A stretch of DNA of 64,000 bases, from assembly GCF_964213995.1 (NCBI RefSeq), contig NC_135812.1:79670001-79734000 (forward strand), written 5' to 3'. A program made the position numbers and the translations under genes. This document shows, piece after piece, positions 11,334 to 35,380 of the stretch (position 1 is its first letter; every line of letters begins with the position of its first letter). The notes beneath the pieces were generated by a model, which did no database searches, was not told the origin of the DNA, and was given only the letters and a program-made list of their open reading frames with translations. Source of the DNA: Mustelus asterias. Lineage: Eukaryota.

Positions 11334-11391
11334 ATGGCTGTACAAATATTCCACCTTCTTCAGATTCTTTTTGTTCTTGTGATTGCTGCAG
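11334..11391 (+). CDS. cd7: CD7-like gene exon 1, signal peptide MAVQIFHLLQILFVLVIAA
   Basis: Kozak-like AGCATGG, 19 hydrophobic codons plus 1 nt, then CAG|GTAGGA donor. Phase 1 joins the V exon to give ...VIAA-DSRIFQSP. Confidence 0.85.
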
Positions 11392-12037
11392 GTAGGACAT
11401 GGCTTTTCTGTGAAATCTTTGAAATGTTTGACAATGGGAGTTTATTGGTACAAATGCTGGCATATCTTCAGCATAAAAATAATTCTGAAGATCCACTTTA
11501 TAATATATACTAGACTAGACTAAAATTGCCTGAGACACTCAATTTGTCTTTGAAATTCTCCTATGAAACATCTGCCTCCCCTTCTAACTTCAGGTTTAAA
11601 ATTCTCCTTGAAATTTAACTCCTCTAATCACACTTTGCCTAATCTCTGCTGACTGCTCTCTTGGTGTTCAAGTTCCTTACCACTCTGTAGAGCATTGCAT
11701 AACATTCTAATGTATTTCTATGTTAGAAGTAATTCATAGAAATGCAAGCTATTGTTCTTTTATGTGGCAATGTGATACCTTTAATTGTCGTTTTGATTTA
11801 AGTTTAGAATGATGAAACAAATGCATCAAAGTAATTGTTACTTAGATAGTAAAAGTAAAGTAGTATAATTAAAATACTTGCCAGAACAGCATTGAACGAA
11901 TGAGTATCTCCACGTAATTCAGAAGTTTAAACAAAGGACTTGATGCGACCAACCTGAGGGAGGGGGGGGGGGGGGGGCGGGGTGATGTGGTGATAGCTTA
12001 TTAAATATGAAAATTGCATTCAGCAGATATTGAGCAA

Positions 12038-13303
12038 CCATAGAACATAGAACAAAGAACACTACAGCGCAGTATAGGCACTTCGGCCCTCGATGTTGTG
12101 CCGACCAGTGGAACCAATCTAAAGCCCCTCTAATCTACACTATTCCAATATCATCCATATGTTTATCCAATAACCATTTGAATGCTCTTAATGTTGACGA
12201 GTCCACTACTGCTGCAGGCAGGGCATTCCACGCCCTTACTACTCTCTGAGTAAAGAACCTACCTCTAACATCTGTCCTATATCTCTCACCCCTCAATTTA
12301 AAGCTATGTCCCCTCATGCTAACCATCACCATGCGAGGAAAAAGGCTCTCACTGTCCACCCTATCTAATCCTCTGATCATCTTGTATGCCTCTATTAAGT
12401 CACCTCTTAACCTTCTTCTCTCTAACGAAAACAACCTCAAGCCCCTCAGCCTTTCCTCATACGATTTTCCCACCATACCAGGCAACATCCTGGTAAATCT
12501 CCTCTGCACCCTTTCCAACACTTCCACATCTTTCCTGTAATGCGGCGACCAGAACTGTACGCAATACTCCAAATGCGGCCGCACCAGAGTTTTGTACAGT
12601 TGCAGCATGACCTCCTGGCTCCGAAACTCAATCCCTCTACCAATAAAAGCTAACACACCGTACGCCTTCTTAACAACCCATCAATCTGGGTGCCAACTTT
12701 CAGGGATCTATGCACATGGACACCCAGATCCCTCTGTTCATCCACACTACCAAGTATCTTACCATTAGCCCAGAACTCTGTATTCCTGTTACTCCTTCCA
12801 AAGTGAATCACCTCACACTTTTCCACATTAAACTCCATTTGCCACCTCTCAGCCCAGCTCTGCAGCTTATCTGTGTCCCTCTGTAACCTGCCACTTCCCT
12901 CCGCACTGTCTACAACTCCACCGACTTTAGTGTCATCCGCAAATTTACTAATCCATCCTTCCACGCCCTCATCCAGGTCATTAATAAAAATGACAAACAG
13001 CAGTGGCCCCAAAACAGATCCTTGCGGAAAACCACTAGTAACTGAACTCCAGGATGAATATTTCCCATCAACCACCACCCTCTGTTTTCTTACAGCTAGC
13101 CAATTCCTGATCCAAACCACGAAATCACCCTCAATCCCATGTGCCCGTATTTTCTGCAAAAGCTTACCATGGGGAACCTTATCAAACACTTTGCTGAAAT
13201 CCATATACACCACATCAACCGCTTTACCCTCATCCACCTCTTTGGTCACCTTCTTAAAAAACTCAATAAGGTTTGTGAGGCACGACCTACCCTTCACAAA
13301 ACC
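12038..13303 (-). mobile_element. Young 5'-truncated CR1 LINE
   Basis: ORFs 12650-13312 and 12135-12656 (YMDFSK, PQGSVLGP, FADD) separated by one frameshift; TTCTATG tail. Confidence 0.95.
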
Positions 13304-13399
13304 AGGTTTCATAAACTAAGCAATTTTTAATATTCTCATATTTTAATGCTTCAATGGTTAATTTTCAGATCTATTGTTTGCGATTAGAGACATCCAATA

Positions 13400-14640
13400 T
13401 TAGCTTATTGATATTTGGTTATTTGATTGAGGGTCTTTCGGATTTTGAGAACAACTATTAAGTTAGAGAGAAACTTTTCCTGTTGTTGAGAAAGTCCAAG
13501 ACAAGTTTGCGTTGCATAAAATCAGAGCCAAACTATTCAAGAGAAAAGTTAGGAAATGTTTCTTCATGCGCAGAGTAGAAGGATAGGATAGGTTGAATAG
13601 ACTTGGCTTGTTTTCATTGGAGTTTAGATGAGTGAGGGGTGACTTGATTAAGCTATATAAGATTCAGGCTGATCCTGACAAGGTCGATGTGGACAGGATG
13701 TTTCCTTTTGTGGGTGAGTCCAGAACTAAGGGGCACTGTTTTAAAATTAAGGGTCAGCCTTTTCGGACAGAGATGAAGAAAAACTTTTGCTCTCAGATGT
13801 TTGTGTGATTTTGGACCTCTTTGCCTCAGAACACATTGGAAGATGGGTCACTGAATATTTTCAAGGCAGAGATAGATAGAGACCGCGATTCTCCCATCCC
13901 ACTGCACTACAAATGAAGCGCAGTGGGCTGGGAGATTCTCACACCGAACGATTCATGAGGTTGCGCAAGCATTCACGTCCCACTTGCATCTCCCAGCGCC
14001 GGACTTCCGGTGGTGTTTGCTCTGTGCTGGAAATTGGCAGGGAGCTGCAAAGGTCACTTACATGGTCATTGTAATAGAATTTAAATACGATTAGCGGGCA
14101 CAGGACTGAAGTCTCCAGGCCCGCTAGCATCTCCTACCCCGCCAGAGTATTCCACTCCAGTGAGGATTACAGTAGCTCACCACTAATATGGAACCAGTGG
14201 CCCAACCCCGCTGGAGTGAAGGGGGTGCAATCGGGGCCCCCTAGATGCACGGTGGTCGGGCGGTGGGGTGGGGGTGCCCCCTGGGCATTGGCACGCTGGC
14301 AGTGCCAGCCTGTGCCCCCGGCACTGCCCAAGGGACAAGGTACATGGGGCATGGGACAGTGGCCTCTGCAGTGCACAGAGTGTGGGAGATTCTTCTCTGG
14401 AAAAAACAGTGTGAATTACTCCAGTTTTCACGCAAATTCGGCACTTAGAATTCTTTTGAGAGAATTCCGCCCAGAATCTTGCAAGATTTTAAGATCTTGC
14501 AAGAGGCCAGAGAACTAAATGCTACTGGGGGTAGTTGGGAATGAGGAACTTGAAACACAAAGAGACCAACCACGATCTTGTTGAATGGCTGAAAAGGCTC
14601 AAGGGGTCAAATGGTCTACTTTCTGTTCCTATTTTGCATG
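13400..14640 (+). mobile_element. Old tandem CR1 3' fragments, the second interrupted by a MITE
   Basis: RGDL/TKGH-like coding remnants to 13880; 3' UTR resumes after 14475. Confidence 0.6.
13881..14472 (+). mobile_element. GC-rich MITE (PIF/Harbinger type)
   Basis: Imperfect TIRs GACCGCGATTCTCCC / GAGAGAATTCCGCCC, 3-bp flank AGA on both sides, terminal hairpin. Confidence 0.7.
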
Positions 14641-15542
14641 CTCATGACAAATGTTGGATTCTCACCTACAAAAAGCAGTAAGCACGAGCTTAATTAATAG
14701 TTTAAGATCTGAGGTCGATAGATTTTGGATGGGTAAGGGAGTAAATGAATATGGAGCCAAGAGATGTGGATGCAGTTAAGATGCAGATCAACCTTGATCT
14801 CACTGAATGGCAGAACACAAATTTGGCTTGGATTGAGAAGAGTCAATCTCCCACTTTCGGGTATACCCTGGTTGCTTGAATGACATTTAGAGGGTTTAAT
14901 GGTTTTCTGCTGAAATTCTGTGCACACAACGACTTCTTGCTGTTTTAGCAGCCATCAAAATAGCTTCCTCATCACGTGGCGTGTACAGGTTCAAAGTCCC
15001 TTTTTGACAAAAAGGGGTGGCACGTTGATTATATCTCTTGCATTGTTGTTTGAAATTCATCCAGCCTTGTTTGGATGAGGGGGTCGTCATATTGCAATGG
15101 AAGGTTGAGGGTGTACACACATTGGGGGCAGTTTTCCCGTCTCGTCCACCAAGGGAATCTCAGCGGGCGAGGGTGCGGACCATGCAAAGGTCCATTGACC
15201 TTGGGTGAGATTTTCCAATTTTGGGGTGAACACGGTCAGAAAATCCACCCATTGAATTCAGCTGTTTCTTCTGTTCATGGTGAAACAGAAACATGGGCTT
15301 GTTGGAATGTTATAGTTCTGTTCATGATCATCCAGACTCAAACATGAGGATGTGTGAATTCCCCAGATGACCGCGAAATTGTGAATGTGTAATATTTATT
15401 TAGATATTTGTATGAGCTTCAGGACTATTTAGAGCTAAAAATGCAAAACATTCACATGATTTGCAGCAGCCATTTTAATAGTCTGTTCGCAAACAAAATT
15501 TTAAGTTACTGTCTTAAACTTCATAATATACTGGAACATGAT

Positions 15543-16454
15543 TGTAAGAGGAATTTTCTTAGGTATCCCCTGGGGTGCTCTGTAGTTGTTGAATCTCACT
15601 CAACCAATACATAGACTGCGAAAGACAGTGTATAGTTAAAGAATGAAAAGGAATTTATTTGCTAATGCATGCATCAGGAGAAAGACACAGTCAATGAGGG
15701 TTGACTGTCGACTCCGAGCTAATATTGCTAGGTAAAATTATTATATTATTCTGAGTATTTCAATATCCCACCCAGTCTTGTCAATCAGACTAGAGGGCCC
15801 AATCACTACATCACACATTATTACCTCAGCCAATAACATTCCACTTGTCAACAGGAATAGGAGATTATTAACTTAGTGTCCATGTAGATTCCTTTCCCTT
15901 TACCTAGGAAACCTAACCCATATCATTACCAGTAACCAAGGCCATTATTAACATCTGTGATTTTTAATTGGTGAAAGGAGTCACTCTTTCACTGGAACTG
16001 GGGCATCCTTTCTCAGCTTGAGAGACTGCTCCAGCCTTGCTACCCATGAACAAATTTACTCCCTTAAATAGCAGGTCTATGATTAAACTTGTTTTTGTGT
16101 ATCCAAAAACAGATATGAGAAGCTGCCTTTCTGTGCTCCATTGTATTAACAGAATTTAGTCTGTCTACCACTATGTTTCCCATCATGCTGCATTCAGAAC
16201 GAAGTGTGCCAAGGCGCACAATACATATATATTGAAATTACAGTTTAAGCTTACAATACTTGGTTAATTTGTGGTTGCACAGTTTATAATATCTTTGCAG
16301 TTTATAATACCTTTGTAGTATGTTTTGTTTCAGGCACATTGTGAATTCTTATTATACATAAAAGGCACTTTGTAATTACCTTAACCTAGTCTATTTATTA
16401 TAGCAAAACTAAAATGAATGGCCTGATACTAGAATTCTATACTACCCCCCATCA
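15543..16454 (-). repeat. ERV 3' LTR (912 bp)
   Basis: Minus strand runs TGATGGGGGG...CTTACA. AATAAA near 15654-15659, TATA-like run near 15740, CCAAT boxes near 15800 and 15830. Confidence 0.93.
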
Positions 16455-16473
16455 GTCCCTGCTTTTGGCCCTT
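16455..16473 (-). promoter_or_regulatory. Polypurine tract
   Basis: AAGGGCCAAAAGCAGGGAC directly before the TG of the 3' LTR. Confidence 0.75.
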
Positions 16474-16496
16474 GGCTATAGCCTAAGATAAAGCCA

Positions 16497-17705
16497 CTAA
16501 ATAGAAGTGTCCCAATACTTGTTCCTGTGTCCTGAAGGAAGACTGGTCCCTTCGTATCCTTGCTTGCTCAACTTCACTGCCATCACTGGTACTACCCCTT
16601 CTGTGGACTTGGACAACCTTGCACAGGCACACTTAACTACATTGACAAACACCATCAGTGCCAAGATCACCATGAAGAATATTGCAATCCCTTGTAGGAT
16701 TGATGTTCCCAAGGAGCCTAACTACCGAAGGTAAATGGTTCAAGGTCTTTGAGTTTCTCCACCTCTTTCCTGCTATGATTAACCAGATTAGTTATGTTTT
16801 CTGAACTATCTAGTATGTCCGTGCAACACCCTGATCTAATCACTGCACAAGTCCCACCCCTTGTCGCCAAGACTTAATCCAATGCCAATCTGTGATGAAG
16901 TACCACAGTGCGCATGGCTACTATCTCATCATTAACCTTAGCAAGGGCAGTTGCTGTATCATTGGTGACTTGTTCCAAAATGGAGTGTAGAACCAGAAAT
17001 TCACGCATCGCTTTAGCTACTCCATATTGGGGAAATAATATGCCAAAGAACCATTCTGTTTCTGTAACAGCCTGTCGATATCTTGGCAGAGGAGGGAGTT
17101 TAGGAGTGTGATATATGTATGGGATTACATATCCAAGGTAACATGACACCTTCCATCCGACAGGGAGCCAAGGATATGCCCTATCCCCACAAATCCAATA
17201 TGTTCCATTGAGAGTTGGGTAAGTGTTTCCTCCTCTAAAGCAATAAGAAATATTGCAAGATTGGTCATTACTGGGTGGACTCAGGCATAGCCACATGGTT
17301 CAATCTACCATGTGTTCACATTCACTCATGCCCAAGTTCTCCCCTTGGCCTTCCATATTTCTAGCACAATATATCCCTTTTGGTTTTGGTGTTGGCTGTT
17401 TTAAAACTAAACTAGGAGCTGGTTCCCCGAGGTTATAGATAGGTGTACATATGTTTATATGACCTAACTTCCCTGCACAAGACTCACTGTTAAGAAATTC
17501 TTTCCTTACCTCTCTACTGATTCCCCCTCCTGCATGTATGGGGATGTGTGAACAATGTGCTAGTCAATCTAGCATATGTGTGTGCCCATATATAAGTATT
17601 AACATGTACCTCCCGAGGGGAACGCTGAAGAACCTCAGTTGCTGGTCCCACCTGAGTCAAAATCTGTACATTCAATATTAAAAAGATATAATCACATGCA
17701 TTCAT
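16497..17705 (-). pseudogene. env: Retroviral env, gamma-type TM subunit, disrupted
   Basis: Signal-like MNACDYIFLILNVQIL, NGTYWICG..AYPWLP..W..SCYLG, decayed furin site RYRQ, fusion peptide WFFGILFPQYGV, ISD LHHRLALD*VLATRGGTC, CX6CC (CAVIRSGCC), TM GIAIFFMVILALMVFVNVV; contains stops and frameshifts. Confidence 0.92.
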
Positions 17706-18023
17706 TATAGCAGTCTCTGCAACTTCTGTCTTCCAATCAAACACAATTGTTGATCAATGTCAGGTAATCATACAGCTTGTTTACGAAACTTGCACAATCA
17801 CCGCGCCACACTTTGCACGCACTCGCCACTTGACTTGTTTCTGCGTTGGGGGATGTCCGGTCAATCTTTATTGGAGCTGTGCCTTGATTGTAGCTGTGGC
17901 AGGTCAGAGATCTTCTGTGTGCATAATCTGTAATAGAATCCAGATGGCCTCGTGACCTTAAATTTAGCAATCAGAATAAATTCGGTCCAATCAGATTCTC
18001 TCCACTTCTACTATTATATTAAA

Positions 18024-19530
18024 TCATTCAGTCGCTGGGTCAGGTTCGCTATCTTGGGGCTTACCACCAGGGTACAGCCTTAACTGAGTCCAGTGTCTCC
18101 AGGGCAGGCCGCACTTCTCATCAATTAGGGCACATGTCTGCCCTGTAACCACCACATCAAAAGACCCTTCCCGGCAAGTTGCTAGCCCCTTTTTGTCTGT
18201 CATGAGTTTCACCATTACCTTATCTCCTGCCAATTTAGTCCAATCTCCATGCTGCTGTTGCGTGATCACCTGCTTTTTGAGAAAATGTAGATTGTGTATT
18301 GGATCCCTCCATATTCAATTCACCCTCTCCGCCATCCCTCAACTCTGAGAGTGATATGGTATGTGAAACCTCTGCTTTATTCCCAACATACGACAGATCT
18401 CTTTCAAAACTCTGCCCGTGAATGAGTTCCCTGATCAGAATCCAGCTGAAGAGGCATTCCCCACCTGGGAATTATCTCATTTGGTAATATCACAGCTACT
18501 GTTGAAGCTGTGGCATCTTTACATGGGAATGCTTCAACCCATTGGTCTACAATTACTAAACAGGACGCTTTCCCTGTACCCGTGGTAACGGCCCTGTAAC
18601 ATCCATTTGTAAATTTTCCCAGGGTCCTTTGGGTCTGGGTTGACTTCCCATTTTAATCTTGCAGGGATGTCCTGCCACCACTAGGGTGCACTGCAGACAC
18701 CTCTGACAATACTAACATTTCTTCAATAAATCAAGCATTCTGTCCCTGCTCGTGTGTGCTGTTCCGTGATAAATCTTCAGCAGCGAATGCTGTTTACTTT
18801 AGGAACTATTATTTTCCCTTCTCTCCTCCATATTCCATCATGACCTCATCATCCTCCATCTTTTTTCCATTACTCCTTTTCCTCTTCATCTGCTTGTTCC
18901 TGCACTTGTTTTACATCAATATCTGGATTGTCCTCAACTGCTACAACTGCTAATCCTACAGGCTGTGTCCACTCCCAGTCCTGTTTTACTAAGGCCTTTG
19001 CTGCCTGGTCGGCAAAATGATTTCCTTGCTGTGCTTTATTCTCAATTTTCCTGTGAGCTTGAACTTTTATTACTGCTGCTTCTAAACGAACACTGGATGC
19101 CTGGAGTAAATTCCTGAGTATGCGGGCTATGGAGGATCATTTTTCCCATCAAAGTGAGGGGCTCCAACACACTGACCGCCCACGAGGCACAAGCTAGTGC
19201 CCTCACACACCGATGCATCCCTTTGGCAACTGAGTAACTGAGCGGAGTGATACTCTATCAGTCTCAATCATTCCCCATGCTGCTGAGCAACTACAGCTGC
19301 CTATATTCCATCATTTTCCTCACAAAAAATGTGTAACGGTTTGGTGACCAAAGCTGGGGCTGTCACCAAAGCCTGCTTCAAATCTGAAAAAGCCTGTATT
19401 TCTGCATCTCCCCACTCTATATTTCCCTGACGAGCCCTTCCTCCCTTTATCAAGTCCTGTAAGAGCTTTACCACTCGGGCACAATCTTCCACAAAATTCC
19501 TATAATAGTTAAGAAGTCTTCAATGCTTGT
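18024..19530 (-). pseudogene. pol: Retroviral pol remnant: RT thumb/connection, RNase H C-terminus, integrase
   Basis: LLNYYRNFV..IEWGDAEIQAFSDLKQALVTAPAL; VIKVQAH..GNHFADQAAK; HHCC (YHGTAH..CQRCLQC); PWENLQMDVTGPLP, WVEAFP, EIIPRWGMPLQLDSDQGTH; C-terminal GDKVMVK..WRHWTQL. No protease or YxDD seen. Confidence 0.9.
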
Positions 19531-20830
19531 CTTACCCCTTTTCCGATGAAAAGCCTTTGTACACAAACAAACTTTCCCCGGTCCTCTGGAAACTATCTTT
19601 TTTTCCCGAATACTATAACCTCATAACATCTTTGAAATAGAAATCAAACCTTTCAATTTGATCCCAGGCCATAACTTATTTTAATTGTTTGTCCTTATCT
19701 TAAATAACATCATTTTATTAAGGTAACTTGCTTACAGCGCATTTTCTTATGTCAGAATCATCCCAAACTCAGAAAACAGTGTTTTGGGCTTTCAACTGCC
19801 CTTTAGTGTCTCTCTTATCTCTTCTTTCCTTTAAGAAAACTTTGTTCCTTCATCTATAGCTATCACCTAAACTGCGTTCTACTTCCGAGAATCCCTTTAA
19901 ATGTCTCTCTTGTATCCAATGAATCCCACTTTTAATTCTGTCCTCCTCTGTTTACTATCAGCTCCTTTATAACGTATCTTTTATTATCCTGTTCATTTTC
20001 CTTTCTCATTTATTCCACTGAATTATTTCCCTCATCTTTAATCATATTAATCTGTCAATTTGGTGTTATAGGTGGGCTCTCCCTTTTAGCCCTTCTGGCA
20101 TCTAATGCAGCTTTCAACCTTCCCATATTCAAAATTTACAACAGGGTGTGCTTTGTGTTCAAAACTACTTCACCAGTTTTGTGGTTGATTCACTACTTTG
20201 CATATCCATGTCACATATTTTAACTAGAATGCATTATGGCAGTATAATAATTCCCATCATTAAACACGCACTCCCATTCTATCTTATGCAATTCTCCTTT
20301 CTGTTAGATTTTTGATTTTATGTCTTAAAACTACTTCAAATCTTATAACACAAAGACCCATCCTGTCTGGGACAGAAAGGATTAAATCTCTGCTTGTTTT
20401 ATCAGGGGCGGAGTAAATTCGCTCAGATTGACATCTTCACTTCAAACACTCCGGAATGATTCTTTCCATTTATCTTTTCATTGTCAGTTCTATCAAGAAT
20501 ACATTTTCGAAAGTAACAACAATCTTGATCCAGATTAATCCAAAATTAAATCTATTTTTATCACTTTTAAATATCCCTACTAAATTAAAACTTCTACACT
20601 TACTTACAATCTCTCCAGTTTAGCTCAAAATTTGCATGATTAATTATTTATACAACTTTACCTCCATAACCAACACAGGCAAATGCAAAATCAAATCAAC
20701 TGTGTGCCTAAATGGTTAACTCTCCTGACAACTTTTCAGACGTTTTCACCATCTTGGAATTGATTTTCCTTTCCCAACATGGCAGAGCTCAAATCTCTGG
20801 CGGATTCCTATTCTTGAAAATGACCATGAA
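19531..20830 (-). pseudogene. Probable gag remnant
   Basis: Lies between leader and pol and is A-rich on the minus strand like the rest of the coding region; no motif could be read confidently. Confidence 0.4.
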
Positions 20831-21433
20831 TTGTACAGTTATATCCTCTCTCTCTCTCTATGCCATACACAGCGAGTCCGTCCTGCTTTTAACCCTTTAT
20901 TCCCCTCTTTGGTCTATGACGTTTTAGACCAACCAATTTAACCTGTCTCTCTCTCTCTCTCTCACAGAAGACCTGTACTCCTGGGACCTCTCCCTGCCAG
21001 TTCTCTCACATGGCCTTGTCCCACCTCTACCTCTGGAATGCCTCCCTGTGAGTTCCTTGCACCCGAGCCAGCCGCCGTCTGTACACATGTCTAGCCACTT
21101 GACGCTTCTCTAGCTACGTGGCTTTTTTGGTTCCGCTGCATAGGAGTGCATGAGAGTCCGTCCCCAGCCCCGCTATGTTTAAACGTAGCTTCTCTGCAAA
21201 CGCCCCTTCTACCCACGCAGCTTTTCGCTCTGCTCCGTAGGTGATCTGAGAGTCCGTCCCTGGCCCCTCCATGTTAAGCATGGGCTCTTTACATATACAC
21301 CGCTTTTGCACCTCTACCCCAGTCTGAGTTACTCAACTTACGGCTTCCGTAGCCCCCTAACTACTGGGTGGTATTTAAAGAAAACACTCACCCACCTTTT
21401 GGGAACATGTCTCGCCACCGGTCACCGGTGAGT

Positions 21434-21451
21434 ACCCTGCTCGCAGCACCA
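21434..21451 (-). promoter_or_regulatory. Primer binding site, tRNA-Ser type
   Basis: TGGTGCTGCGAGCAGGGT, 3 nt from the 5' LTR; 16/18 complementary to the vertebrate tRNA-Ser(UGA) 3' end as recalled (ACCCUGCUCGCUGCGCCA). Confidence 0.8.
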
Positions 21452-21454
21452 AAT

Positions 21455-22388
21455 TATAAGAGGAATTTTCTCAGGTATCCCCTGGGGTGCTCTGTAGTTG
21501 TTGAATCTCACTCAACCAATATATAGACTGCGAAAGACAGTATATAGTTAAAGAATGAAAAGGAATTTATTTGCTAATGCATGCATCAGGAGAGAGACAC
21601 AGCCAATGAGTGTTGTCTGTCCTCTCCGAGCTAATATTGCTAGGTAACATTGTTATATTATTTTGAACATTTCAATATCCCACCCAGTCTTGTCAATCAG
21701 ACTAGAGGGCCCAATCACTACATCACACATTATTACCTCAGCCAATAACATTCCATCTGTCAACAGGAATAGGAGCTTATTAGCTTATTGCCCATGTAGG
21801 TTCCTTCCCCTTTACCTAGGAAACATAACCCATGTCATTACTCGTAACCAAGACCATTATTAACATCTGTGATTTTTAATTGATGAAAGGAGTCACTCTT
21901 TCACTGGAACTGGGGCCTCCTTTATCAGCTTGAGAGACTGCTCCAGCCTTGCTACCCATGAATGAATTTACTCCCTTAAATAGCAGGCCTATGATTTAAA
22001 CGTGTTGTCGTGTATCCAACAACAGATAACAGAAGCTGCCTTTTTGTGCTCCATTGTATTAACAGAATTTGGTCTGTCTACCACTGTGTTTCCCATCATG
22101 CTGCATTCAGAACAAAGTTGGCCAAGGAGCACAATCCATATGTATTGAAATTATAGTTTAAGCTTATAATACTTGGTTAATTTGTGGTTGTACAGTTTAT
22201 AATACCGTTGCAGTTTATAATACCTTTGTATATTTTGTTCCAGGCACATCGTGAATTCTTACTATATATATAAGGCACTTTATAATTACCTTAATCTAGT
22301 CTACTTACAGTAAAACTAAAATGAAGGGCCTCATACTAGAATTCTATACTACACCCCCCCCCCCCCCCCCCCACCCCCCTCCCAATCA
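21455..22388 (-). repeat. ERV 5' LTR (934 bp)
   Basis: Direct repeat of 15543-16454 (hand count about 15 mismatches in the first 230 nt), immediately followed on the minus strand by the PBS. Confidence 0.93.
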
Positions 22389-24329: not shown

Positions 24330-24650
24330 CACAATGGCACAGTGGCTAACACTTTTGCCTCACAGTGCCAGGGACCTAGGTTCAGTTCTGGCTCGGATGA
24401 CTGTCTGTGTGGAGTTTGCACATTTTCACCATGTCTGCATGGGTTTCCTCTGGGTGTTTCAGTTTTCTCCCACAGTCCAAAGATGTGCAGATTAGGTGGA
24501 TTGGCCATGCTAAATTGCCCCTTAGTGTCAGGGGGACTAGTGGGGTAAATACGTGGGGTCACGGGGATAGGGCTTGGGTGCGATTGTTGTCGGTGAAGGC
24601 TTAATGGGCCGAATGGCCTCTTTCTGCATTGTAGGGATTCTATGAATATA
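24330..24650 (+). mobile_element. Family A SINE
   Basis: Head GGCACAGTGGCTAACAC, core and GATTCTATG tail. Confidence 0.85.
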
Positions 24651-25725
24651 AGAACATATCCAGTGAAAAATTGAATCAGGAAAATAAGATTTTGAAGAAG
24701 AGAAGCTTGGCAATGAGAAATTAACTGAAGAGAACAAAGAACAAAGAATAGTACAGCACAGGAAACAGGCCCTTCGGCCCTCCAAGCCTGTGCCGCTCAT
24801 TGGTCCAACCAGACCAATCGTTTGTATCCCTCCATTCCCAGACTGCTCATGTGACTATCCAGGTAAGTCTTAAACGATGTCAGCGTGTCTGCCTCCACCA
24901 CCCTACTTGGCAGCGCATTCCAGGCCCCCACCACTCTCTGTGTAAAAAACGTCCCTCTGATATCTGAGTTATACCTCGCCCCTCTCACCTTGAGCCCGTG
25001 ACCCCTCGTGATCGTCCCTCCGACCTGGGAAAAAGCTTCCCACTGTTCACCCTATCTATACCCTTCTATTAGGTCTCCCCTCATTCTCCATCTTTCCAGG
25101 GAGAACAAGCCCAGTTTACCCAATCTCTCCTCATAGTTAAGACCCTCCATACCAAGCAACATCCTGGTAAACCTTCTCTGCACTCTCTCTAAAGCCTCCA
25201 TGTCCTTCTGGTAGTGCGGCGACCAGAACTGGACGCAGTACTCCAAATGTGGCCTAACCAGTGTTCTATACAGCTGCAACATCAGACTCCAGCTTTTATA
25301 CTCTATACCCCATCCGATAAAGACAAGCATACCATATGCCTTCTTCACCAACTTCTCCACCTGTGCTGCCACCTTCAAGGATTTGTGGACTTGCACACAA
25401 AAGTCCCTCTGTGTTTCTATATTCTTGATGGCTCTGCCATTTATTGTAGAACTCCCCCCTACATTAGTTCTTCCAAAATGCATCACTTTGCATTTATCTG
25501 GATTAAATTCCATCTACCATTTCTCCGCCCAATTTTCCAGCCTATCTATATCCGACAATGTTCATCGCTATCCACAAGTCCAGCCATCTTCGTGTCATCC
25601 ACAAAACTTGCTGATAACACCAATTACACCTTCTTCCAAATCATTTATATATATCACAAATAGCAGAGGTCCCAGTACAGAACCCTGTGGAACACCACTG
25701 GAACAGTGGTGTTGTGGAACAGAGA

Positions 25726-25862
25726 CCACTCCATCTGACGAAGGAGCAGCAAGCTCCGAAAGCTTATGGTATTTGCTACCAAATAAACCTGTTGGACTTT
25801 AACCTGGTGTTGTGAGACTTCTTACTGTGCTTACCCCAGTCCAACGCCGGCATCTCCACATC
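25726..25862 (+). mobile_element. Minimal Penelope 3' fragment (hammerhead plus tail) nested in a CR1
   Basis: Matches the pLTR 3' end at 7871-8005; 11-bp TSD AACACCACTGG (25691-25701, 25863-25873). Confidence 0.9.
25731..25769 (+). ncRNA. Minimal type I hammerhead ribozyme motif, variant
   Basis: CCAT-CTGACGA-A-GGAGC(AGCAA)GCTCC-GAAA-GC-TT-ATGG. Confidence 0.82.
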
Positions 25863-26494
25863 AACACCACTGGTCACAGACCTCCAGCTGGAAAAAGACC
25901 CTTCGACTGCTACCCTCTGTCTCCTGTGGCCAAGCCAGTTTTCTACCCATCTAGCCACCTCTCCTTGTATCCCATGAGCCTTAACCTTCTGAACCAATCT
26001 GCCATGAGGGACTTTGTCAAATGCCTTACTGAAATCCATATAGACAACATCCGCGGCCCTTCCTTCGTCAACCATTTTTGTCACTTCCTCAAAAAACTCC
26101 ACCAAATTTGTAAGGCACGACCTCCCTCTTACAAAACCATGCTGTCTGTCACTATTGAGATTGTTCCGTTCTAAATGCGCATACATCCTGTCTCTAAGAA
26201 TCCTCTCCAACAACTTCCCTACCACGGACGTCAAGCTCACTGACCTATAATTACCCGGGTTATCCCTGCTACCCTTCTTAAATAACGGTACCACATTCGC
26301 TATCCTCCAATCCTCAGGGACCTCACCTGTGTCCAATGAAGAGACAAAGATTTCCGTCAGAGGCCCAAGAGGTAAAAACATTGAATTTGACAGAAGAATC
26401 AGCAATTCAGACAGAGAAAGAAACTGAGATTACTTGCAAAAACACGATTTTTGAATTGGTCAGACTAATAGAAAAGCATAAGAACCAAGGAAGT

Positions 26495-27620
26495 TTGGAA
26501 GTTGGATGCAGAATTGGCTGAGTGGCAGGAAGCAAAGAGTGATGGTCGAGGGGTGGTTTTTGGGAATGGAGGACTGTGCCCAGTGGGATCCCACAGTGAT
26601 CAGTGTTGGGGCCCTTGCTGTTTGTGATTTATATAAATGATTTAGACTTAAATGTAGGATGGTTGATCAATAAGTTCGTAGATTTTGCAAAAATTGGTGG
26701 GGTGGTAAATAATGAGGAGGATAGCCTTAGATTACAGGAGGATGTAGATGGGCTGATCAAATGGGTTGATCTGTGGCAAATAGAATTCAATTCAGATAAG
26801 TGTGAGGTAATGCACTTGGGGAGGGTAAACAAGTCAAGAGAATACATGATGAATGGCAGAACTCTGGGAAGCACTAAGGATCAGAGGGATCTTGGTGTGC
26901 TTGTATACCAGTCCCTCAAGGTAGCAGGACAAGTGGATAAAGTGGCTGAGAAGCCATATGGTACACTTGCCTTTATTAGTCGAAGCATAGAATTTAAGAG
27001 CAGGAAAGTTATGCTGAAACTATATCAAACATTGGTTAGGCCACAGCTAGAGTATAGTTGCACTTTTGCAATCAACATTCGAGAAGGTATGTGATAGCAT
27101 TGGAAAGGGTGCAGAGGAGATTTACCAGGATGTTGCCTGGGCTGGAGAGTTTTAGTTAAGAAGAGAGATTGGATACACTGCGGTTGTTTTCCTTGGAAAA
27201 GAGAAGACTGAGGGGGGACATGATTGAAATATATAAAATGATGAGGGGCATCTATAGAGTGGGCAGGAAGAAACTTTCCTCCTTGGTGGAGGGATCAATG
27301 TCTAGGGGGCATAGATTTAAGGTAAGGGTCAGGAGGTTTAGAAGGGATAGGAGGTTTAGAAGGGATGTGAGGAAAAACTTTTTCATCCAATGGATGGTGG
27401 GAGTCTGGAACTCACTGCCTGAAAGGGTGGTGGAAGCAGAGACCCTCATAACTTTAAGAAGTATTTAAATGTGCACTTGCGATGCCAAGGCATACAAGCC
27501 TATGGGCTCAGTGCTGAGTGCTGAAAAATTGGATTAGCATGTTTGTGTACTTTGTCTTTGACCAGCGCAGAAGCAATGAGCTGAAGGGCCTTTTTCTGTG
27601 CTGCATACCTCTGTCTCTAA
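26495..27620 (+). mobile_element. 5'-truncated CR1 LINE
   Basis: ORFs 26603-27094 and 27169-27468. Confidence 0.92.
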
Positions 27621-27781
27621 TATCATAAAATGGTTGATGAAAAAGATGCTGAATTGAAATGCTGGAAAGAGAAGAAACTTTATCACATGATCTAAGTACC
27701 AGAAACAGAATACCATGACCATTCCTTCATACATGATAGACCAGGATTGTGAAAGAACTGTCAGGACAAGACTTTGTTGAA

Positions 27782-28620
27782 TTGTGATATGTGTGCCTGA
27801 ATGCATTTTAATGTAAGGTGCTTGGCAGAGCAAGGGTCAACGTGGGACTAGACAGTGGCATCGCCCACAGGGTGATGTATCACATGGTCAGAGAACTGTC
27901 TGGAACTGAACTCAGGAGCATGCCTGCATGGAACAGCTCCATACACAACCATATTTGGAACTTTACATAGTTAAAGACTACAATAAAAGTGTTTATGTTA
28001 AACACACAAGCCTCAAGATCCCATCAATGAGCCATCACCACTGCAACAATAATAAAAAACACACTAAAGTCCGTAATATGAAACTTCAGCAGTGGATCAA
28101 ATTGGATCCCATAATTATTGTTTCTAAAACCGGACCCCTATTGTACCAAGTAGACCTGGCAGGGCGGATCATTCATAAACATATGGATCACTTGAGGAGT
28201 GGAGAGAGACTTCAGCAGTCAGCATTGCATTAAGAAATGTTTTTGAACCTGTAAGCGCCTGCTCGACCTGTTATAGACATAACTGATATCTCTATGGGAG
28301 CACGTAGTAATGAACTGCCTGTACTAGAAGAGGTGCCTCTTATTGCAGTTCCTATTAATGTTGATCACGTGGAAGCATTTCAGACAACAGAATTATACCA
28401 CTCTACAAGATACAGAAAAACCTCTCAAGGACTTGATTTATAACTGTCCAACTCATGTACACCATATTTAGTTATAATTCACGACTGCGTGACTTAGTTA
28501 TTAAAGACTGTAAAAAGGAATTAAAGGGGGAGGCAATTGTCTCTTTAAGGCTCCAACTTCTGGGTGTGCAACCTACTCCCTGCAGCAGAGGGTATTATTT
28601 AGGCCATGAAGTGATGGACT
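27782..28620 (+). mobile_element. Gypsy-type relics: LTR-like piece, integrase C-terminus and PPT
   Basis: TG..AATAAA..CA segment 27782-28026; KTGPLLYQV..HKHMDHLR module; TTAAAGGGGGAGG PPT near 28521-28533. Confidence 0.6.
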
Positions 28621-28829
28621 GAAGTGGCAACTAGACTCTCAGCTACTGAAAGGAGCCATTTTACTCCAGGAATCTGAAATAATAGAAATTACACAGAACA
28701 ATCCCTTATTTCTATACCACTATTCTTCTTCAAATAAATATTGACTTAAAAGAACATTCCGTTTGATAATTGATCACATTCAGAGCTTTATGACCGTACT
28801 GACTATATCTTTAATTCTATATTTTACAG

Positions 28830-29168
28830 ACAGTCGCATTTTTCAGTCTCCTTTTGTTAAACAAGTGAAAGGGGGAGGATCTGTTTCAATAAACTGCGGA
28901 TTTACATCTGAAGACGATACCATTGTGGGCATCTATTTAAGAAGAAATCTTTTAGTTCCCACCGATCTGATCTACGTCCACGATCGTATTAATACGGTGC
29001 ATGACGCATATATCAACCGTACTGAGTTTAAAGGAAGCAAACAAAACTTCACTGTAACCCTCAATAATCTCCAGGAAAATGACACAGATATTTACTATTG
29101 CGTGTTTGGAATACGAAAAGTTACAGTATCAAATGTATTTGGACAAGGAACAATGTTGATAGTGTCAG
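28830..29168 (+). CDS. cd7: CD7-like gene exon 2, IgV domain with germline-joined J-like segment
   Basis: Acceptor ttctatattttacag|, donor tcag|gtatgt, 339 nt, phase 1-1. Encodes QSP..VSINC..VGIYLRR..RTEFKGSKQNFTVTLNNLQENDTDIYYC..NVFGQGTMLIVS. GIYLR replacing the C-strand Trp motif and NVxGxGT match mammalian CD7 as I recall it ([40 protein letters not shown]). Confidence 0.92.
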
Positions 29169-29993
29169 GTATGTTTCTTTCAAATTTTCATCTGACACCA
29201 AATTTATTCATTAAAATTTATTTCCTAAAAGCAATATTTGTATTGAGACATGTAGGGGATGACGTGCAGCTATGTGCCTGCTGTACAGTTCTTCTTATTA
29301 ATAAATTATTTTCTATTTTTAATGAAGTCTATGAAAGTGCATCATTACATTTCATAGATGGAACCTTCATTTCTACTTGGCATAACTTCAGCCATATCCT
29401 TTTGACTTCACTGTTGGTCAGGTCTGACTCTGACCAAGAGTTGACTTGTTTCCATTCAGCAATTCTCGCATTAACCTTCTTGTGGGATCTTTCATTGTCT
29501 TCCTTCTGGGGTATTTCATTGCCCTCCTTTCAGTGCTCTCTTTCTGGTTAATTCTTTTACCACTTTCTGGGGTCTTCTATTGCCTCCTTTCTGAGGCTTC
29601 TCTTGCCCTCTGTTTGATGTATTTTTTGCCTTCTCTTTGAGGTCTTTGTTGCCTCCTCTGACGTCTTCCGTTGCCTCTTCCATGAGCTCTTCATTTCTTA
29701 TCGATCTTTCTTTGAGAATTGCCCTCTCTCTGGGGTCTTCTCCAATTTTCTTGTAGATAGCTGTTTGTTCCCTCTTGTGGTTGCTACTTTAAGTGCAACA
29801 TCACTTTAAATGTATTACGTCTTTAAATGCATTGCCATTGTCATCTTTTTTGCTCATCTGTTAGCAGCTGCCAGCTTTCTCTCTGCATTTTCCGAGTACT
29901 TTTGAAGTTTTGGCTGCTTTATTTTGCACTTTGTTAATGTTTCCTTTTTCTCAGGGAAGTTCATTCCAGAGATTCCTGGAATTTAGTTTTATT

Positions 29994-30310
29994 AGAATCA
30001 TAGAATCTCTATAGTGCAAGAGGAGACCATTCAGCCCATTGAGCCTGCTCCATCAACAATCCCACTCAGGCCCATAGCCCCACGTATTTACCCTACTAAT
30101 CCCCCTGACACTAAGGGACAATTTACCATGGCCAATCAACCTAACCTGCACATCTTTGGACTGTGGGAGGAAACCGGGGCACCCGGAGGAAACCCACGCA
30201 GACACGGGGAGAACATGCAAACTCCGCACAGTCACCCAACAATGGAATTGAACCCAGGTCCCTGGCACTATGAGGCAGCAGTGCTAATCACTGAGCCACC
30301 GTGCCACCCC
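29994..30310 (-). mobile_element. Family A SINE
   Basis: Full-length match to other copies. Confidence 0.88.
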
Positions 30311-32575
30311 TAAATTATTCTTCTGGCCGTTTGAGTAGTCTGTTTCTTCTTTCATTATTTTTCTTTGATGGGCCGGTTTTTTTGTCAATTTCAACAAGTG
30401 GCAGAGGGCCCTGTGGGGGAGATGGGCGATTTTGTGTTGAGACAAACAATATAAAGAGGTCAACATGGAGGAGAAAGTTCACAATCTAAAGTTGTTGAAC
30501 TTAGTGTTGAGTCCAGATCAAAATCTTTTGCATGTACCCTACAGCCATATTTGATCAGTCTCACCTCATTTTTTCCTTATCATTTCTTGAGTTGTCTTCC
30601 ATCCTCTCCCATTCATTTCACTATCAGTTATTTTATTCTGAGGCCTGCAAATAAGAATATACAATAGCCAGAGAACACAGTTGTTCTTAAAGGTGAGTGA
30701 ACCTGGCAAGTATCTCCTGCAGCCATGTCTACTGTTGACACAAGCTACTTTAGCAAGTTTCTTGGTTAATCAAAGTTAAATTAAATGTCTAACAGAACTT
30801 CATACCAATTCTTAACACTTGCTATAACTTATGGCTTTGACATGGACGGTATGAAGGGCCATGGGAGTGGGTGCTGCACCAAGGGACATAACTTGGCATG
30901 GACGGTATGAGGGGCCATGGAGTAGTTGGTGGAGGATATAGCTTTGCATGGCGGTATGGGTGAAACCATTTGAACTTGCCTTTCAAAAGGTTCCCTCATC
31001 CAGAATCATGATGCCTCTGAGGGGTCATAAACCTCAAGTCCTTTAAAAGCTGGCCCAAAACGACAAGAAATGTGGAGGTCTGGGTCATACCTATCCCCAT
31101 AATGAAACTGGCCAGGTCAGCAGTGCAGGGTGTGGGAATCGCAACCCACACGCAAATCGGGGCCGTGGGAATAGGGTTGGGAATCCTGTAATTGGGTCCC
31201 AGCCGCCATTTTGATACCTCCAGCATATCCCTGACTCTATGGAAATCCAGACTACAGCACTGATTTTAAAGAACAAACTTCCTCCTGGCTTTAATGGTAC
31301 GTTTCTCCCTGCCTCACCAGAGTGAATTTTCCAGTATCCTTTAAAACAAAACCCCCTTTGTTCAACCCTTTGAGCATTATCAACTGGATTTCTCACTGCA
31401 AGGCACCCTCTAATGAACAATCCTTGTTTCCTTGACCATGAGTTCCATTTTCACTCGCACTCTATCTGGTGATTTACCCAAAAGCAATCCTTTTCTTTTG
31501 CCAGGCAGGGCAACCACTGTTGTGGTCTTCTTCCCCAATGTTTTCCATCTTACTGCCCCAAGGGTCAGTGAGCCTGTATGGCAATCAGACCAGTTGCCTC
31601 CTCCTTATCATCCAGGTGTTCAAACTTGCAACTTATTTTCCATAGGTTTTGCCCTTTGCCCCTGTCCCCATGGCAACCAAGACACACGGGCTTTTCTCTG
31701 GGTTAACTCAATATGACATTGCATAGGCTTGTCCTTGGCCAGACTCTGTACATGTTCACATGGATTTATTTCCAGGCAGACTCAGATAAAAGTCTTGTAC
31801 AGCTCCCAAGCTGCTCCATTTTACCTTGAATGAAAGGAGATAGTTTAGAGTAAACTTTTTTTATAAAGACTCCAAGGAAGTTAGGTATATGGTGGTTAGG
31901 TGGGCAAATAGAGTTGAGGTCAAGGCTCAGCCATGATCTTAGTAAAGAGCAGGAGAGACTTGAGGGGCTGAATGGCCTACTTCCTTGTTTATGTTTTTTT
32001 GGGGGCACATCCAATATGGCAAACAGCGCAGGAGCAGGAAGATGAACAGGAAGCTCATGGGCAGCTCTGGGCAAGAAGGTCCGGTTTCTGCATGAAGCAC
32101 CCCAGCAAAGGCAGCAGTCAGTCAGGCTGGCTGACGGGCAACAGCAAGGCCACTGGCAGAAGATGGGAAGGGTAAGTGCTGTCACCCTGAGAGAGGACAG
32201 TGGGTTTATTCTCAGCACCACTATTCCCGCAGGGCATCATCTTCGATGATGGCCAGCATCGTCACCTCCATGGGAGTGAGGGCATGCCTGTCCCTCTCCA
32301 ATTAGTGCCATTGCTGGCACTTGTGTGACTCCACTTCAGCTATTGACAGCCTATCTTGTTTGAAGGCAGAAGTCATGAGCTTGTAAGTGTACTCAGAGAT
32401 TTAAACACAGAACATGATTGGCGTATTCTAATCAGCGACACAACATATTCTGTCTTTTGTACTTCATCTTTATTTTCGGTTAAGAAAGATGATAGAAGAT
32501 GAAAATAATTTCATGACAATGCAGAGATATAAAATGTGCAATTCTTTTGTCAAAAACAATTACATATTTTTTCAG

Positions 32576-32718
32576 GGCTTAAAATGGAACACCATGCAAA
32601 CTGTTCTGTGGGAGCAGCAAACTACAGCGAAGTTTCATATAAGAATTCAATCCTGATCTGTGTGATTACTGTTGCAATATTTGCCAGTATTTGTGCATTA
32701 GTTCTGTTATTCTTGCAT
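32576..32718 (+). CDS. cd7: CD7-like gene exon 3, short stalk with one Cys plus transmembrane helix
   Basis: Acceptor atattttttcag|, donor cat|gtaagt, phase 1 to 0, in frame with the V exon: GLKMEHHANCSVGAANYSEVSYKNSILICVITVAIFASICALVLLFLH. Confidence 0.88.
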
Positions 32719-34423
32719 GTAAGTTCCTGCTTTCTTTATAACAAATATTTATAGGTATTAAATAATAGGAAGTGAAATTGATGCAATTAAATACAGATTG
32801 TGCTGGTGAACAGTTATCCAGATTGTTAAATTGGGAAAAAGCACATGTTATATGTAACTTATTGTCCACTTAAAAATGGATGTCTGGATGTCCGCTTTCA
32901 TCTAGTTTGGATAGGGCAAAATTCAATGTCCTCACCAAGGCACTGAATTAGGCAGGGGGGTGGTGGGCGAGGACCTCACTATCTTCCTAACTGCACCCTG
33001 GTTATGTCTGGGGTGGGAGTGAATGCTCACCTAAAGCCTCATCCTGCCTCTGCTGATATTAACTCAGTGACTGGCGGGGCATTCACCATTGTGGAAATCC
33101 TCATTCAAGGGCACTCATTTCCTGATTAAGAGACCTGGCATTGGGAAGAGTGGTGGGTGGGGTGGCACTGAAAGCCACTCTCCCCACTCCCACTGCCTGC
33201 CCTTGCTTCTTACCCACTCCCCACTGTATTCACCAGTCAATGATTCCCTCACTGTGACCCCCCATCCTGCTGTCACTCAGCTGTGCAGTTGATCCCTGAC
33301 TGAACCTGAGCCTCTGGTGGAAGTGTAACCACAAGCCAGCATTGGTGTCCCTGTGGCACTGATGATACTGAGCATCCGCCAGTGTCTGATTGGCTGGCAG
33401 CTCACAGCGGGAGGGATTTCCACTCATGGGACCTTGATTCTGGGGAAGGCCTGGCACTTGCCTGATGGGTCCTTCAAATCACGGGTCTCCCCCAAAGAAG
33501 GCAATGTGGGGTATTTGCCAGCGCTCCATCCAGTGAGTGAGACCCCCATCGCCTGGATTAAATTCAACGCAAAGAACCTGAGTCATAAACATTAAAGAGA
33601 TTCTGGGATCCCCATATCAATGATTCTCTGTAACTTCCCTCTCATTTCAGAAGAATTTTTATTGTTAAAAAAATCTAATCAACTGAATTACACTATTGAT
33701 ATTGATTTTTCTGAAATATATAATTAATAAAACCAATACTTGACTTTGTTAGTCTTAGAAAAGCACCCCTTTAACACTCAAAGCAAAATTTGTCAAATAA
33801 ATACAGTAGGACCCTGGAAATCTGTGAGTTACAACCCCAGAATTCTCCCGGAACATATGTATTGTTGAACCTCATGATCACAGATGCCATTCTCCAGCCG
33901 ATTTGATTCACTCCGTGAGATCTCAAGAAATAGCTGAAGGAACTGAATAGAGCTAAGGCTATGGGCCCTGCCCCATATGTAGCTTTGAAGACTTGTACCC
34001 CAGTACTAGTAACATCCTTAACTAAGATGTTTCAGTACAATTGCAACACTCATATCTACCCAATTAAAATGGGAAATGTCTATGTCCACTAAAAGCAGGA
34101 CAAATCATTCCAACCAATTATCACCCTATCAGTCTTCCCTCAATGATCAGAGAAAATTCAGAAAGGCAGTGGAAGGTGTTCATTCAGAGCCATTTATTAA
34201 AGAATAGAAATAATAGAAATATAGATAGCTAATGCGAAATGAACAACATTTTCAGGATCATTCAGCCTTCCTAGGGTCCAAGGTTCTCCATTTCTGGCAA
34301 GATCAGCAATTGTTGCCCATCCTAACTGCACTTGAACTGAATGGCTGAGTTGGGTATTTCAGAGAGCAGTTATTAGTCAACTACATTGCAGAGAATCCGG
34401 AATCACATGTAGACCAAACCAGC

Positions 34424-34950
34424 TGTAGGGTCCATTCATTCCTTTGAATAGACGAGGGCAGCACTGGTACGGTGTTGAAATGAATTTCTTTTATTGAACA
34501 GAACTTAAAATGAAATCAGTATAAAAGCGAAAAGAAAGAGAAAAGCTGGAGCCAGCCCTGTACTGATCACATACTGAACTCAAAAACAAAGCTGAACGGC
34601 AAACACAGAGCTGAAACTACAATATATGTCACTCGTCATCTTGTTATTGAAATTGTTTTGCACATGCTGTCCCCAACTTGGAGAAACAGGCCTTGCAGAT
34701 GTTGTTTATGAAAAACTTGTTTGGCTTATGAAAAGTTTGTTCTGCTTGCTTTGCACTCTTTAAAAATGCAGCCAATTCCGAGCTAACCCAGCATGCCTTA
34801 TGAGTTTTAAAATGTAGTCAAGTGTTAGCTTTAGTATGTAGTCAAGTTAATCCCAACAGTCTAGCAGTTAAACATAATTGTAAAGGCAGAAATATCTTAA
34901 AATGAAGTATTTTCATAGATGAAACAAACCATACACAGGGTCCCTCAACA
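34424..34950 (-). mobile_element. Solo LTR nested in a family C SINE
   Basis: TGTAGGG...CCCTCAACA ends, flanks CCAGC/TCAGC, minus-strand AATAAA near 34490, homologous to 49176-49715. Confidence 0.75.
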
Positions 34951-35159
34951 TCAGCTAATAATGGCAGGTTGCCTCCATGAACGCCAGGTTTCATGAATTG
35001 AATTAAATTCCACCAACTACCATGATGGGATTTGAACCAATCGTCCCCCAGAGGATTAACCTGCATCTCTGGATTACTAGTCCAGTGACATTACCACTGC
35101 CTTATATTGAAGCAACCATTGTGATGAATGTGATTTTTAAAAACTGTCTTCATTTTTAG

Positions 35160-35380
35160 GTAAGAAAACATTCGTTGGGAGAGCAGCTAACTCATTGTAT
35201 GACGATCTGAACCTGGTGCGAACACAAAGAAGGGGATGCTCGTTGCATTATTTTGCATTAACTTCAAGCTCAGGCCACCTTATGCTTTTTCTATTAAAGA
35301 TCAAATGTAGGCAGAGAATTGTAAAATTCTTAATTTCTTTCAAATTTAGCACATTTTCGCCAAACGTTTTTGCGATGTAG
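35160..35380 (+). CDS. cd7: CD7-like gene candidate exon 4, cytoplasmic tail (frame ambiguous)
   Basis: Acceptor ctgtcttcatttttag|. One frame reads KTFVGRAANSLYDDLNLVRTQRRG, resembling the CD7 AA..VYEDM region. That frame needs the AAG acceptor at 35164 or a restored 1-nt deletion; the first AG in phase 0 gives VRKHSLGEQLTHCMTI-stop. Confidence 0.55.

What the first reader, a model, noticed from the sequence alone, without database searches (positions are those of the whole stretch)
11334..35380. Complete CD7-like receptor gene reconstructed from scattered exons
Seen: leader, V and stalk/TM exons join in correct phase (1, 1, 0) across 21 kb of repeats. The V domain has GIYLR in place of the usual Trp motif, a germline FGQG J-like strand, five N-glycosylation sequons (NRT, NFT, NDT, NCS, NYS), one stalk Cys and no Pro/Ala repeat stalk. 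Established: these V features characterise CD7. Inference: a cartilaginous fish CD7 orthologue or paralogue, informative for the ancestral non-rearranging VJ receptors of T/NK cells.
Basis: partly seen in the sequence, partly recalled or inferred. Interest (0 to 1): 0.7.

Follow-up and report, generated by a model that had tools for sequence, protein, structure and literature searches.

The report
Shark CD7 with a signal-less twin
This shark has two neighbouring copies of the T-cell receptor gene CD7, and the copy here is spliced into a message that drops the signalling motif while its outer domain is almost identical to its signalling twin's, likely through gene conversion, so it likely acts as a decoy that dampens CD7 signalling.

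Summary
The exons are real and the V domain is CD7-type (reciprocal best hits; 17q25-like marker order). But this is not the ordinary CD7. A second copy 61.7 kb upstream encodes the usual 216-aa receptor with a YEDM tail. In the window copy, exon 4 is 19 nt shorter, and contigs from 3 of 3 intron-less runs (one study) join 32718 to 35160, giving 196 aa with a 16-residue tail without tyrosine (stop 35210). The copies are 96.7% identical in the V exon but 67-68% in leader and stalk/TM. Trees conflict (p-AU 1.7e-5 and 0.006): the window copy is orthologous to a tyrosine-less catshark CD7-like record, so the duplicate is old and its V exon was likely re-copied by gene conversion. Stingray and devil-ray records show separate tyrosine-less duplicates. 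Likely role: a signalling-dead decoy (0.5); ligand, tissue and function are untested. This scan noted similar tailless, converted twins for other shark receptors on other DNA, none for CD7. Verdict: real, new variant of a known kind, interest 0.5.

The parts
11334..11391 (+). Exon 1 coding part: ATG and leader peptide, phase 1 donor
28830..29168 (+). Exon 2: V-set Ig domain, GIYLR C strand, J-like FGQG strand, 3 sequons
   Evidence: 96.7% nt identity to the upstream copy
28762..29190 (+). Tract of near-identity with the upstream copy (likely gene-conversion tract): V exon plus about 70 nt and 20 nt of intron
   Evidence: 18-20 of 20 matches per 20-nt bin from 28770 to 29189, 3-12 of 20 outside; alignment
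32576..32718 (+). Exon 3: stalk with one Cys and two added sequons, uncharged TM helix, phase 0 donor
   Evidence: spliced on both sides in contigs
35160..35210 (+). Exon 4 coding part as spliced: 16-residue tail without tyrosine, stop TGA 35208-35210; 19 nt shorter than the upstream copy before the old motif
35165..35380 (+). Out-of-frame remnant of the tyrosine motif (SLYDDL, later LHYFAL), open for 71 codons; would be in frame only from a minor AAG acceptor at 35165, used by 0 of 3 spliced contigs
35211..36706 (+). 3' UTR; laid to 35450, end inferred from the length of the X2 contig, with a poly(A)-type hexamer at 36671
   Evidence: the part beyond 35450 is inferred
54010..54360 (+). Decayed third V-like exon with stops and frameshifts
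   Evidence: local score 120.5 against 50 +/- 7.5 in 300 shuffles (max 72); best non-self region in 664 kb; protein-level hit weak (E 1.1)

Best explanation
The window holds a spliced second CD7 gene whose message encodes a membrane receptor without the YEDM signalling motif, and whose outer domain, likely re-copied from the intact upstream CD7 by gene conversion, would bind the same ligand without signalling, so it likely works as a decoy or damper of CD7. Shown: two tandem copies, the splicing of exons 2-3-4, the 19-nt shortening of exon 4, the tyrosine-less tail, V-only near-identity, conflicting trees. Inferred: gene conversion as the cause; surface expression; a shared ligand (a host protein, a galectin on the glycans, or a pathogen adhesin); competition for that ligand, or dilution of signalling copies in receptor clusters, so that less PI3K is recruited through the YEDM of the upstream copy.
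For: Spliced contigs in 3 of 3 intron-less runs give the 196-aa form; the DNA-like run X3 has the same exon-4 letters. Stop lies in the last exon. Upstream copy keeps NSVYEDM like 15 of 20 elasmobranch sequences compared. V exon dS 0.02 against 0.47 (stalk/TM) and 1.07 (leader) between copies. V tree joins the two own copies (100/100); leader+stalk/TM tree joins this copy with catshark XP_038633590 (99/97); each alternative is rejected (p-AU 1.7e-5 and 0.006). That catshark record also lacks the tyrosine (195 aa) and shares the one-Cys stalk. Leader, TM exon and splice sites would stay intact in only 0.1-2.7% of neutral simulations at the assumed divergence. No charged TM residue, so no adaptor-type activating signal. 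YEDM-PI3K link: title of Lee 1996 as cited in PMC2193045 and PMC10320036 (reference lists only).
Against: No ligand, tissue or protein data; the three runs are one study and are not labelled RNA. Whether the upstream copy is expressed in the same cells was not tested. Stalk/TM dN/dS between copies is 0.85 and this copy's branch is long (0.49 against 0.08 for the catshark orthologue), which fits relaxed selection. In the V exon 9.5 of 11 differences change the amino acid and most polarisable ones fall on this copy, so it may be drifting or changing ligand. The catshark V pair is only 75% identical, so homogenisation is episodic, and no short copy was retrieved from S. torazame. Tandem genes convert without selection, and a decayed third V exon shows that copies here also die.
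Confidence: 0.5

Rival explanations
1. A redundant duplicate on its way to decay: tail loss is the first lesion, V identity is neutral conversion between tandem neighbours, and transcription persists without a role.
For: Near-neutral stalk/TM dN/dS (0.85) and long branch; V differences mostly nonsynonymous, dN/dS 1.8 on small numbers; decayed third V exon nearby; single copies retrieved from most other sharks.
Against: Orthologous short copy with intact leader, V and TM in catshark; low neutral survival of the non-V exons, 0.1-2.7% (rough model); clean splicing in three runs.
Confidence: 0.22
2. An accessory or adhesion chain rather than a brake: it holds ligand or pairs through its single stalk Cys with the long copy or another chain, and so supports signalling, or it serves as a ligand in trans.
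For: Both short shark copies lost the three conserved stalk cysteines and gained one new Cys; two extra stalk sequons here; J-like G strand as in dimeric V receptors (general knowledge).
Against: No charged TM residue or conserved tail motif; tails of the two short shark copies share little beyond VRK. Pairing was not tested.
Confidence: 0.16
3. A classical inhibitory partner: a minor acceptor at 35165 restores the frame, giving a 251-aa form with two ITIM-like motifs (SLYDDL, LHYFAL) that would recruit SHP phosphatases.
For: The frame is open for 71 codons to 35380; the motif remnant is the best kept non-V part (84% nt, dN 0.14, dS 0.29); the M-to-L change is shared with the catshark short copy (DLNL).
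Against: 0 of 3 spliced contigs use it; AAG lies 5 nt behind a TAG with a pyrimidine tract; the catshark orthologue has no tyrosine at all; the extension is former 3' UTR. Contigs drop rare variants, so a minor isoform is not excluded.
Confidence: 0.08

Closest known systems
CD7 (human T-cell antigen CD7, PDB 12hp; RefSeq 'CD7-like' of Scyliorhinus and Chiloscyllium)
   Same: Single V-set domain with GIYLR and no C-strand Trp, J-like G strand, short stalk, uncharged TM, four coding exons, place between NARF/CYBC1 and CK1/FASN.
   Different: No YEDM in the spliced product; second of a tandem pair; one stalk Cys in place of the three of the long shark forms; SECTM1 is eutherian-specific (PMC4603632, title and passages), so the ligand is unknown.
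Paired leukocyte receptors under 'merohomogenization' (KLRC, KLRB, Ly49, PIR; PMC3210942, abstract and outline seen); Siglec-11/16, CD300A/C (search listing only)
   Same: Ligand-binding exon homogenised within the species while TM and tail stay distinct and follow an older orthology.
   Different: The partner is not opposing but silent in the transcripts seen: no ITIM, no ITAM, no charged TM residue.
CEACAM decoy receptors (PMC11646289, PMC5112662; start of abstracts in search listing)
   Same: A paralogue that keeps the N-terminal V domain of a signalling receptor and lacks its signal.
   Different: Pathogen use of CEACAM1 is documented; no pathogen ligand is known to me for shark CD7 and none was tested.
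CD28X (PMC11599192, passages)
   Same: Single V domain, GxG in the G strand and EYEDM tail, present in sharks and rays.
   Different: CD28X has PPP in CDR3 and lies with pudp/sts/anos1; neither copy here has PPP, and CD7 records are the reciprocal best hits.

Membership tests
CD7 | One extracellular V-set Ig domain, stalk, single TM | tested here: met
   PF07686 E 6e-12; model pLDDT 96, V fold
CD7 | Reciprocal best similarity with CD7 | tested here: met
   Human CD7 best single-domain PDB hit (multi-domain antibody constructs and pIgR score higher in sum); tuatara and lungfish CD7 records hit the two C12 copies first; tuatara record's best single-domain hit is human CD7. No tree with named CD8/CD28/CD79/SECTM1 was built.
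CD7 | GIYLR-type C strand without Trp; J-like G strand encoded in the V exon | tested here: met
   Aligned to GIYLR and YGSGT of human CD7
CD7 | Cytoplasmic YEDM (YxxM) motif | tested here: not met
   Absent from the spliced product; present in the upstream copy. Hence a CD7 paralogue by descent, not the signalling CD7.
CD7 | Synteny with human 17q25.3 markers | tested here: inconclusive
   Same contig and order: NARF-like 78.35 Mb, CYBC1 78.38, CD7 pair 79.63-79.71, CK1 85.11, FASN-like 85.48 (human order and strands recalled). CK1 is 5.4 Mb away and not typed as delta; HEXD not found on this contig; UTS2R not tested.
CD7 | Binds SECTM1/K12 or galectin-1; expressed on T and NK cells | not testable with these tools
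   Runs carry no tissue label
Paired receptors with homogenised ligand domains | Within-species homogenisation limited to the ligand-binding exon | tested here: met
   weaker in catshark (V 75%, stalk/TM 52%)
Paired receptors with homogenised ligand domains | Partners carry opposing signalling motifs (ITIM against ITAM or charged TM) | tested here: not met
   Short copy has no tyrosine and no charged TM residue; ITIM-like frame used by 0 of 3 contigs
Paired receptors with homogenised ligand domains | Shared ligand and co-expression | not testable with these tools
   No binding or cell-type data
CD28 family (CD28X, CD28H) | PPP or EIP motif in the CDR3 loop | tested here: not met
   Motifs from PMC11599192 passages; absent in both copies

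The most novel reading that the evidence does not exclude
Elasmobranchs have repeatedly built a signalling-dead CD7 twin (once before this shark and catsharks split, again in stingrays and perhaps devil rays), keeping its V domain matched to the signalling copy. That would mark CD7 as an ancient costimulatory receptor under pressure from a conserved, pre-SECTM1 ligand or a pathogen, with the shark twin perhaps passing through an ITIM-like inhibitory stage before being silenced separately in two lineages.
Probability: 0.25. Interest if true: 0.72.

Novelty: new variant of a known kind. Interest (0 to 1): 0.5.

Why it matters
CD7 is a CAR-T target whose normal role is still called unclear (PMC10320036, passage) and whose best-known ligand exists only in eutherians (PMC4603632). 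A shark CD7 with a strictly kept YEDM tail shows the receptor is as old as jawed vertebrates, and a natural long/short pair with 92% identical V domains gives a direct way to look for the older ligand and to test whether CD7 signalling is tuned by a decoy. No paper on shark CD7 or on such a pair turned up in searches (45 and 61 listed only papers without CD7; subscription journals and unseen supplements, such as those of shark genome papers, may list the gene).

Tried and rejected
Micro-exon between exons 3 and 4 to rescue the tyrosine frame: three weak candidates by scan, rejected because contigs join 32718 to 35160 directly. Assembly error in exon 4: rejected, the X3 contig over 35073-35450 has 0 differences. 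Collapsed or chimeric assembly of the V exon: rejected, copies differ at 11 sites and a spliced contig joins this copy's V alleles to this copy's exon 3. Recent whole-gene duplication: rejected by AU tests. Stingray short copies as orthologues of this copy: rejected, they group inside rays in both trees. Fold search gave only generic V domains (top TM about 0.88) and did not list CD7, so it does not discriminate. ORF and motif scan of 664 kb for neighbouring genes was too noisy to name any. HEXD search found only another contig. No holder is on record as RNA; RNA status rests on intron-less contigs. The leader-V junction and expression of the upstream copy remain unlaid. No complex prediction was run.

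Full report
1. Observation. GIYLR, FGQG, five sequons and one stalk Cys are as described. Two catshark CD7-like proteins, the only 2 hits among 80 candidates of the first homologue search, match four places in the window in order, including a last exon near 35180.

2. Family. The V exon is Pfam V-set and folds as a V domain with pLDDT 96; the fold search returned only generic V domains. Among PDB chains human CD7 is the best single-domain hit (E 3.9e-14; also with a 49-sequence profile, where multi-domain antibody constructs and pIgR score higher in sum). In the reverse direction, tuatara and lungfish CD7 records hit this exon and its upstream twin first in the 3.7-Gb genome (top 2 of 6 matches; 2 of 2). 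NARF-like, CYBC1, CK1 and FASN-like genes lie on the same contig in the order and orientation that I recall for human 17q25.3, but CK1 is 5.4 Mb away, HEXD was not found there and UTS2R was not tested. CD28X also has a YEDM tail in sharks but carries PPP in CDR3 (PMC11599192, passages), which is absent here. The nearest relatives are catsharks; I did not identify the species.

3. A second copy. The genome search found a second V exon 61.7 kb upstream, 92% identical in protein. It belongs to a complete four-exon gene of 216 aa (C12:79632772 to about 79643020) ending in NSVYEDM. That is the ordinary CD7: 15 of 20 elasmobranch sequences compared carry YxxM (five isoform or near-duplicate records P0008, P0010, P0022, P0165 and P0167 were left out).

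4. The tail of the window copy. Exon 4 is 19 nt shorter than in the upstream copy between the acceptor and the old motif. Because exon 3 ends in phase 0, the acceptor at 35160 gives a 16-residue tail without tyrosine, stop at 35208-35210. Of 4 runs laid on 32450-35450, three (X2, X4, X5) cover exons but not the intron, apart from repeats, and each has one contig that runs from exon 3 straight into 35160 with no mismatch; the fourth (X3) covers the intron and matches exon 4 letter for letter. The X4 contig's loose end is the end of this copy's V exon. The runs are one study, have no RNA or tissue label, and contigs drop rare variants.

5. History. The copies are 96.7% identical over the V exon (dS 0.02) but 68% over stalk/TM (dS 0.47) and 67% over the leader (dS 1.07); identity drops within about 70 nt upstream and 20 nt downstream of the exon. 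S. canicula has two records: a long one and XP_038633590, 195 aa, with no tail tyrosine, a tail starting VRK and the same one-Cys stalk as this copy. V trees join the two own copies (100/100); leader plus stalk/TM trees join this copy with the catshark short record (99/97). On 11 shark sequences, forcing either alternative is rejected (p-AU 1.7e-5 and 0.006; the groups were chosen after seeing the trees, and this copy has a long branch in the 67-column tree). So the duplication predates the split from catsharks and the V exon was likely overwritten later, probably from the upstream copy, whose V branch has length zero. The two short tails look like different lesions (a frameshift here, the motif region shortened in frame in catshark), inferred from protein only. 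Among rays, Hypanus has neighbouring long (220 aa) and short (200 aa) records, Hemitrygon a short one, and Mobula hypostoma a duplicate with the tyrosine replaced and part of the TM missing; these group within rays, so they arose separately. All are predicted RefSeq models that I could not check against DNA.

6. Mechanism. A receptor with the same binding domain, an uncharged TM and no tyrosine would take up ligand without recruiting PI3K. The YEDM-PI3K link rests on the title of Lee et al. 1996 seen in two reference lists and on general knowledge. I put decoy or damper at 0.5. For function: an orthologue with intact ectodomain in catshark, clean splicing, and 0.1-2.7% neutral survival of leader, TM exon and splice sites in a rough simulation. 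Against: stalk/TM dN/dS 0.85, a long branch, 9.5 of 11 V differences nonsynonymous (not significant on these numbers), only 75% V identity in the catshark pair, and a decayed third V exon at about 54010-54360. Rivals are decay (0.22), accessory chain (0.16) and an ITIM isoform (0.08).

7. Known and new. Homogenisation limited to ligand-binding exons is established for paired receptors (PMC3210942, abstract and outline; other families seen only in the search listing). Earlier notes of this scan report the same pattern for other shark receptors on other DNA, including a tailless gamma-chain twin (unchecked, not used as support); it seems common in shark tandem immune genes, which lowers the surprise of the process. 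Shark CD7-like genes are named in RefSeq, but searches gave no paper on them or on a signal-less CD7 twin; supplements of shark genome papers were not seen and may list the gene. PMC4603632 (passages) said in 2015 that no CD7 phylogeny had been reported and that SECTM1 is eutherian-specific.

8. Verdict. New variant of a known kind; interest 0.5.

Noticed in passing
window 54010-54360 (+): Decayed third CD7-type V exon with stops and frameshifts; no matching leader, TM or tail exon found in 664 kb.
   Followed up: partly
G000:C12:79632772-79643020 (+), loci L007-L008: The intact YEDM-bearing CD7 gene (216 aa, three stalk cysteines), outside the window; its expression was not tested.
   Followed up: yes
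window 35160-35165: Exon 4 begins GTAAGA right after the acceptor, so splicing recreates a donor-like site (recursive-splice type); no use of it in the three contigs.
   Followed up: partly
window 16877-17299 (-), intron 1: 141-aa ORF that looks from memory like part of a retroviral envelope protein; no Pfam hit.
   Followed up: partly
P0032 and P0013 (Microcaecilia), P0016 (bird): A caecilian has a CD7-like record whose tail reads TVYEGV (ITSM-like by recalled consensus) besides a two-V-domain YEDM form; a bird CD7 record also has two V domains.
   Followed up: no
P0022 (Narcine isoform X2), P0168 (Mobula hypostoma): Predicted CD7-like forms lacking all or part of the TM, possibly soluble.
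   Followed up: no
P0004-P0007, P0009: Carpet-shark CD7 has lost the FGxG bulge (for example IGQETV, IVQETV), so the J-like motif is not kept in all sharks.
   Followed up: no
window 6157-7400, 12138-13316, 25055-27091, 61532-64000: Reverse-transcriptase fragments of LINE-type and probably Penelope-type elements; one confirmed as RVT_1.
   Followed up: partly
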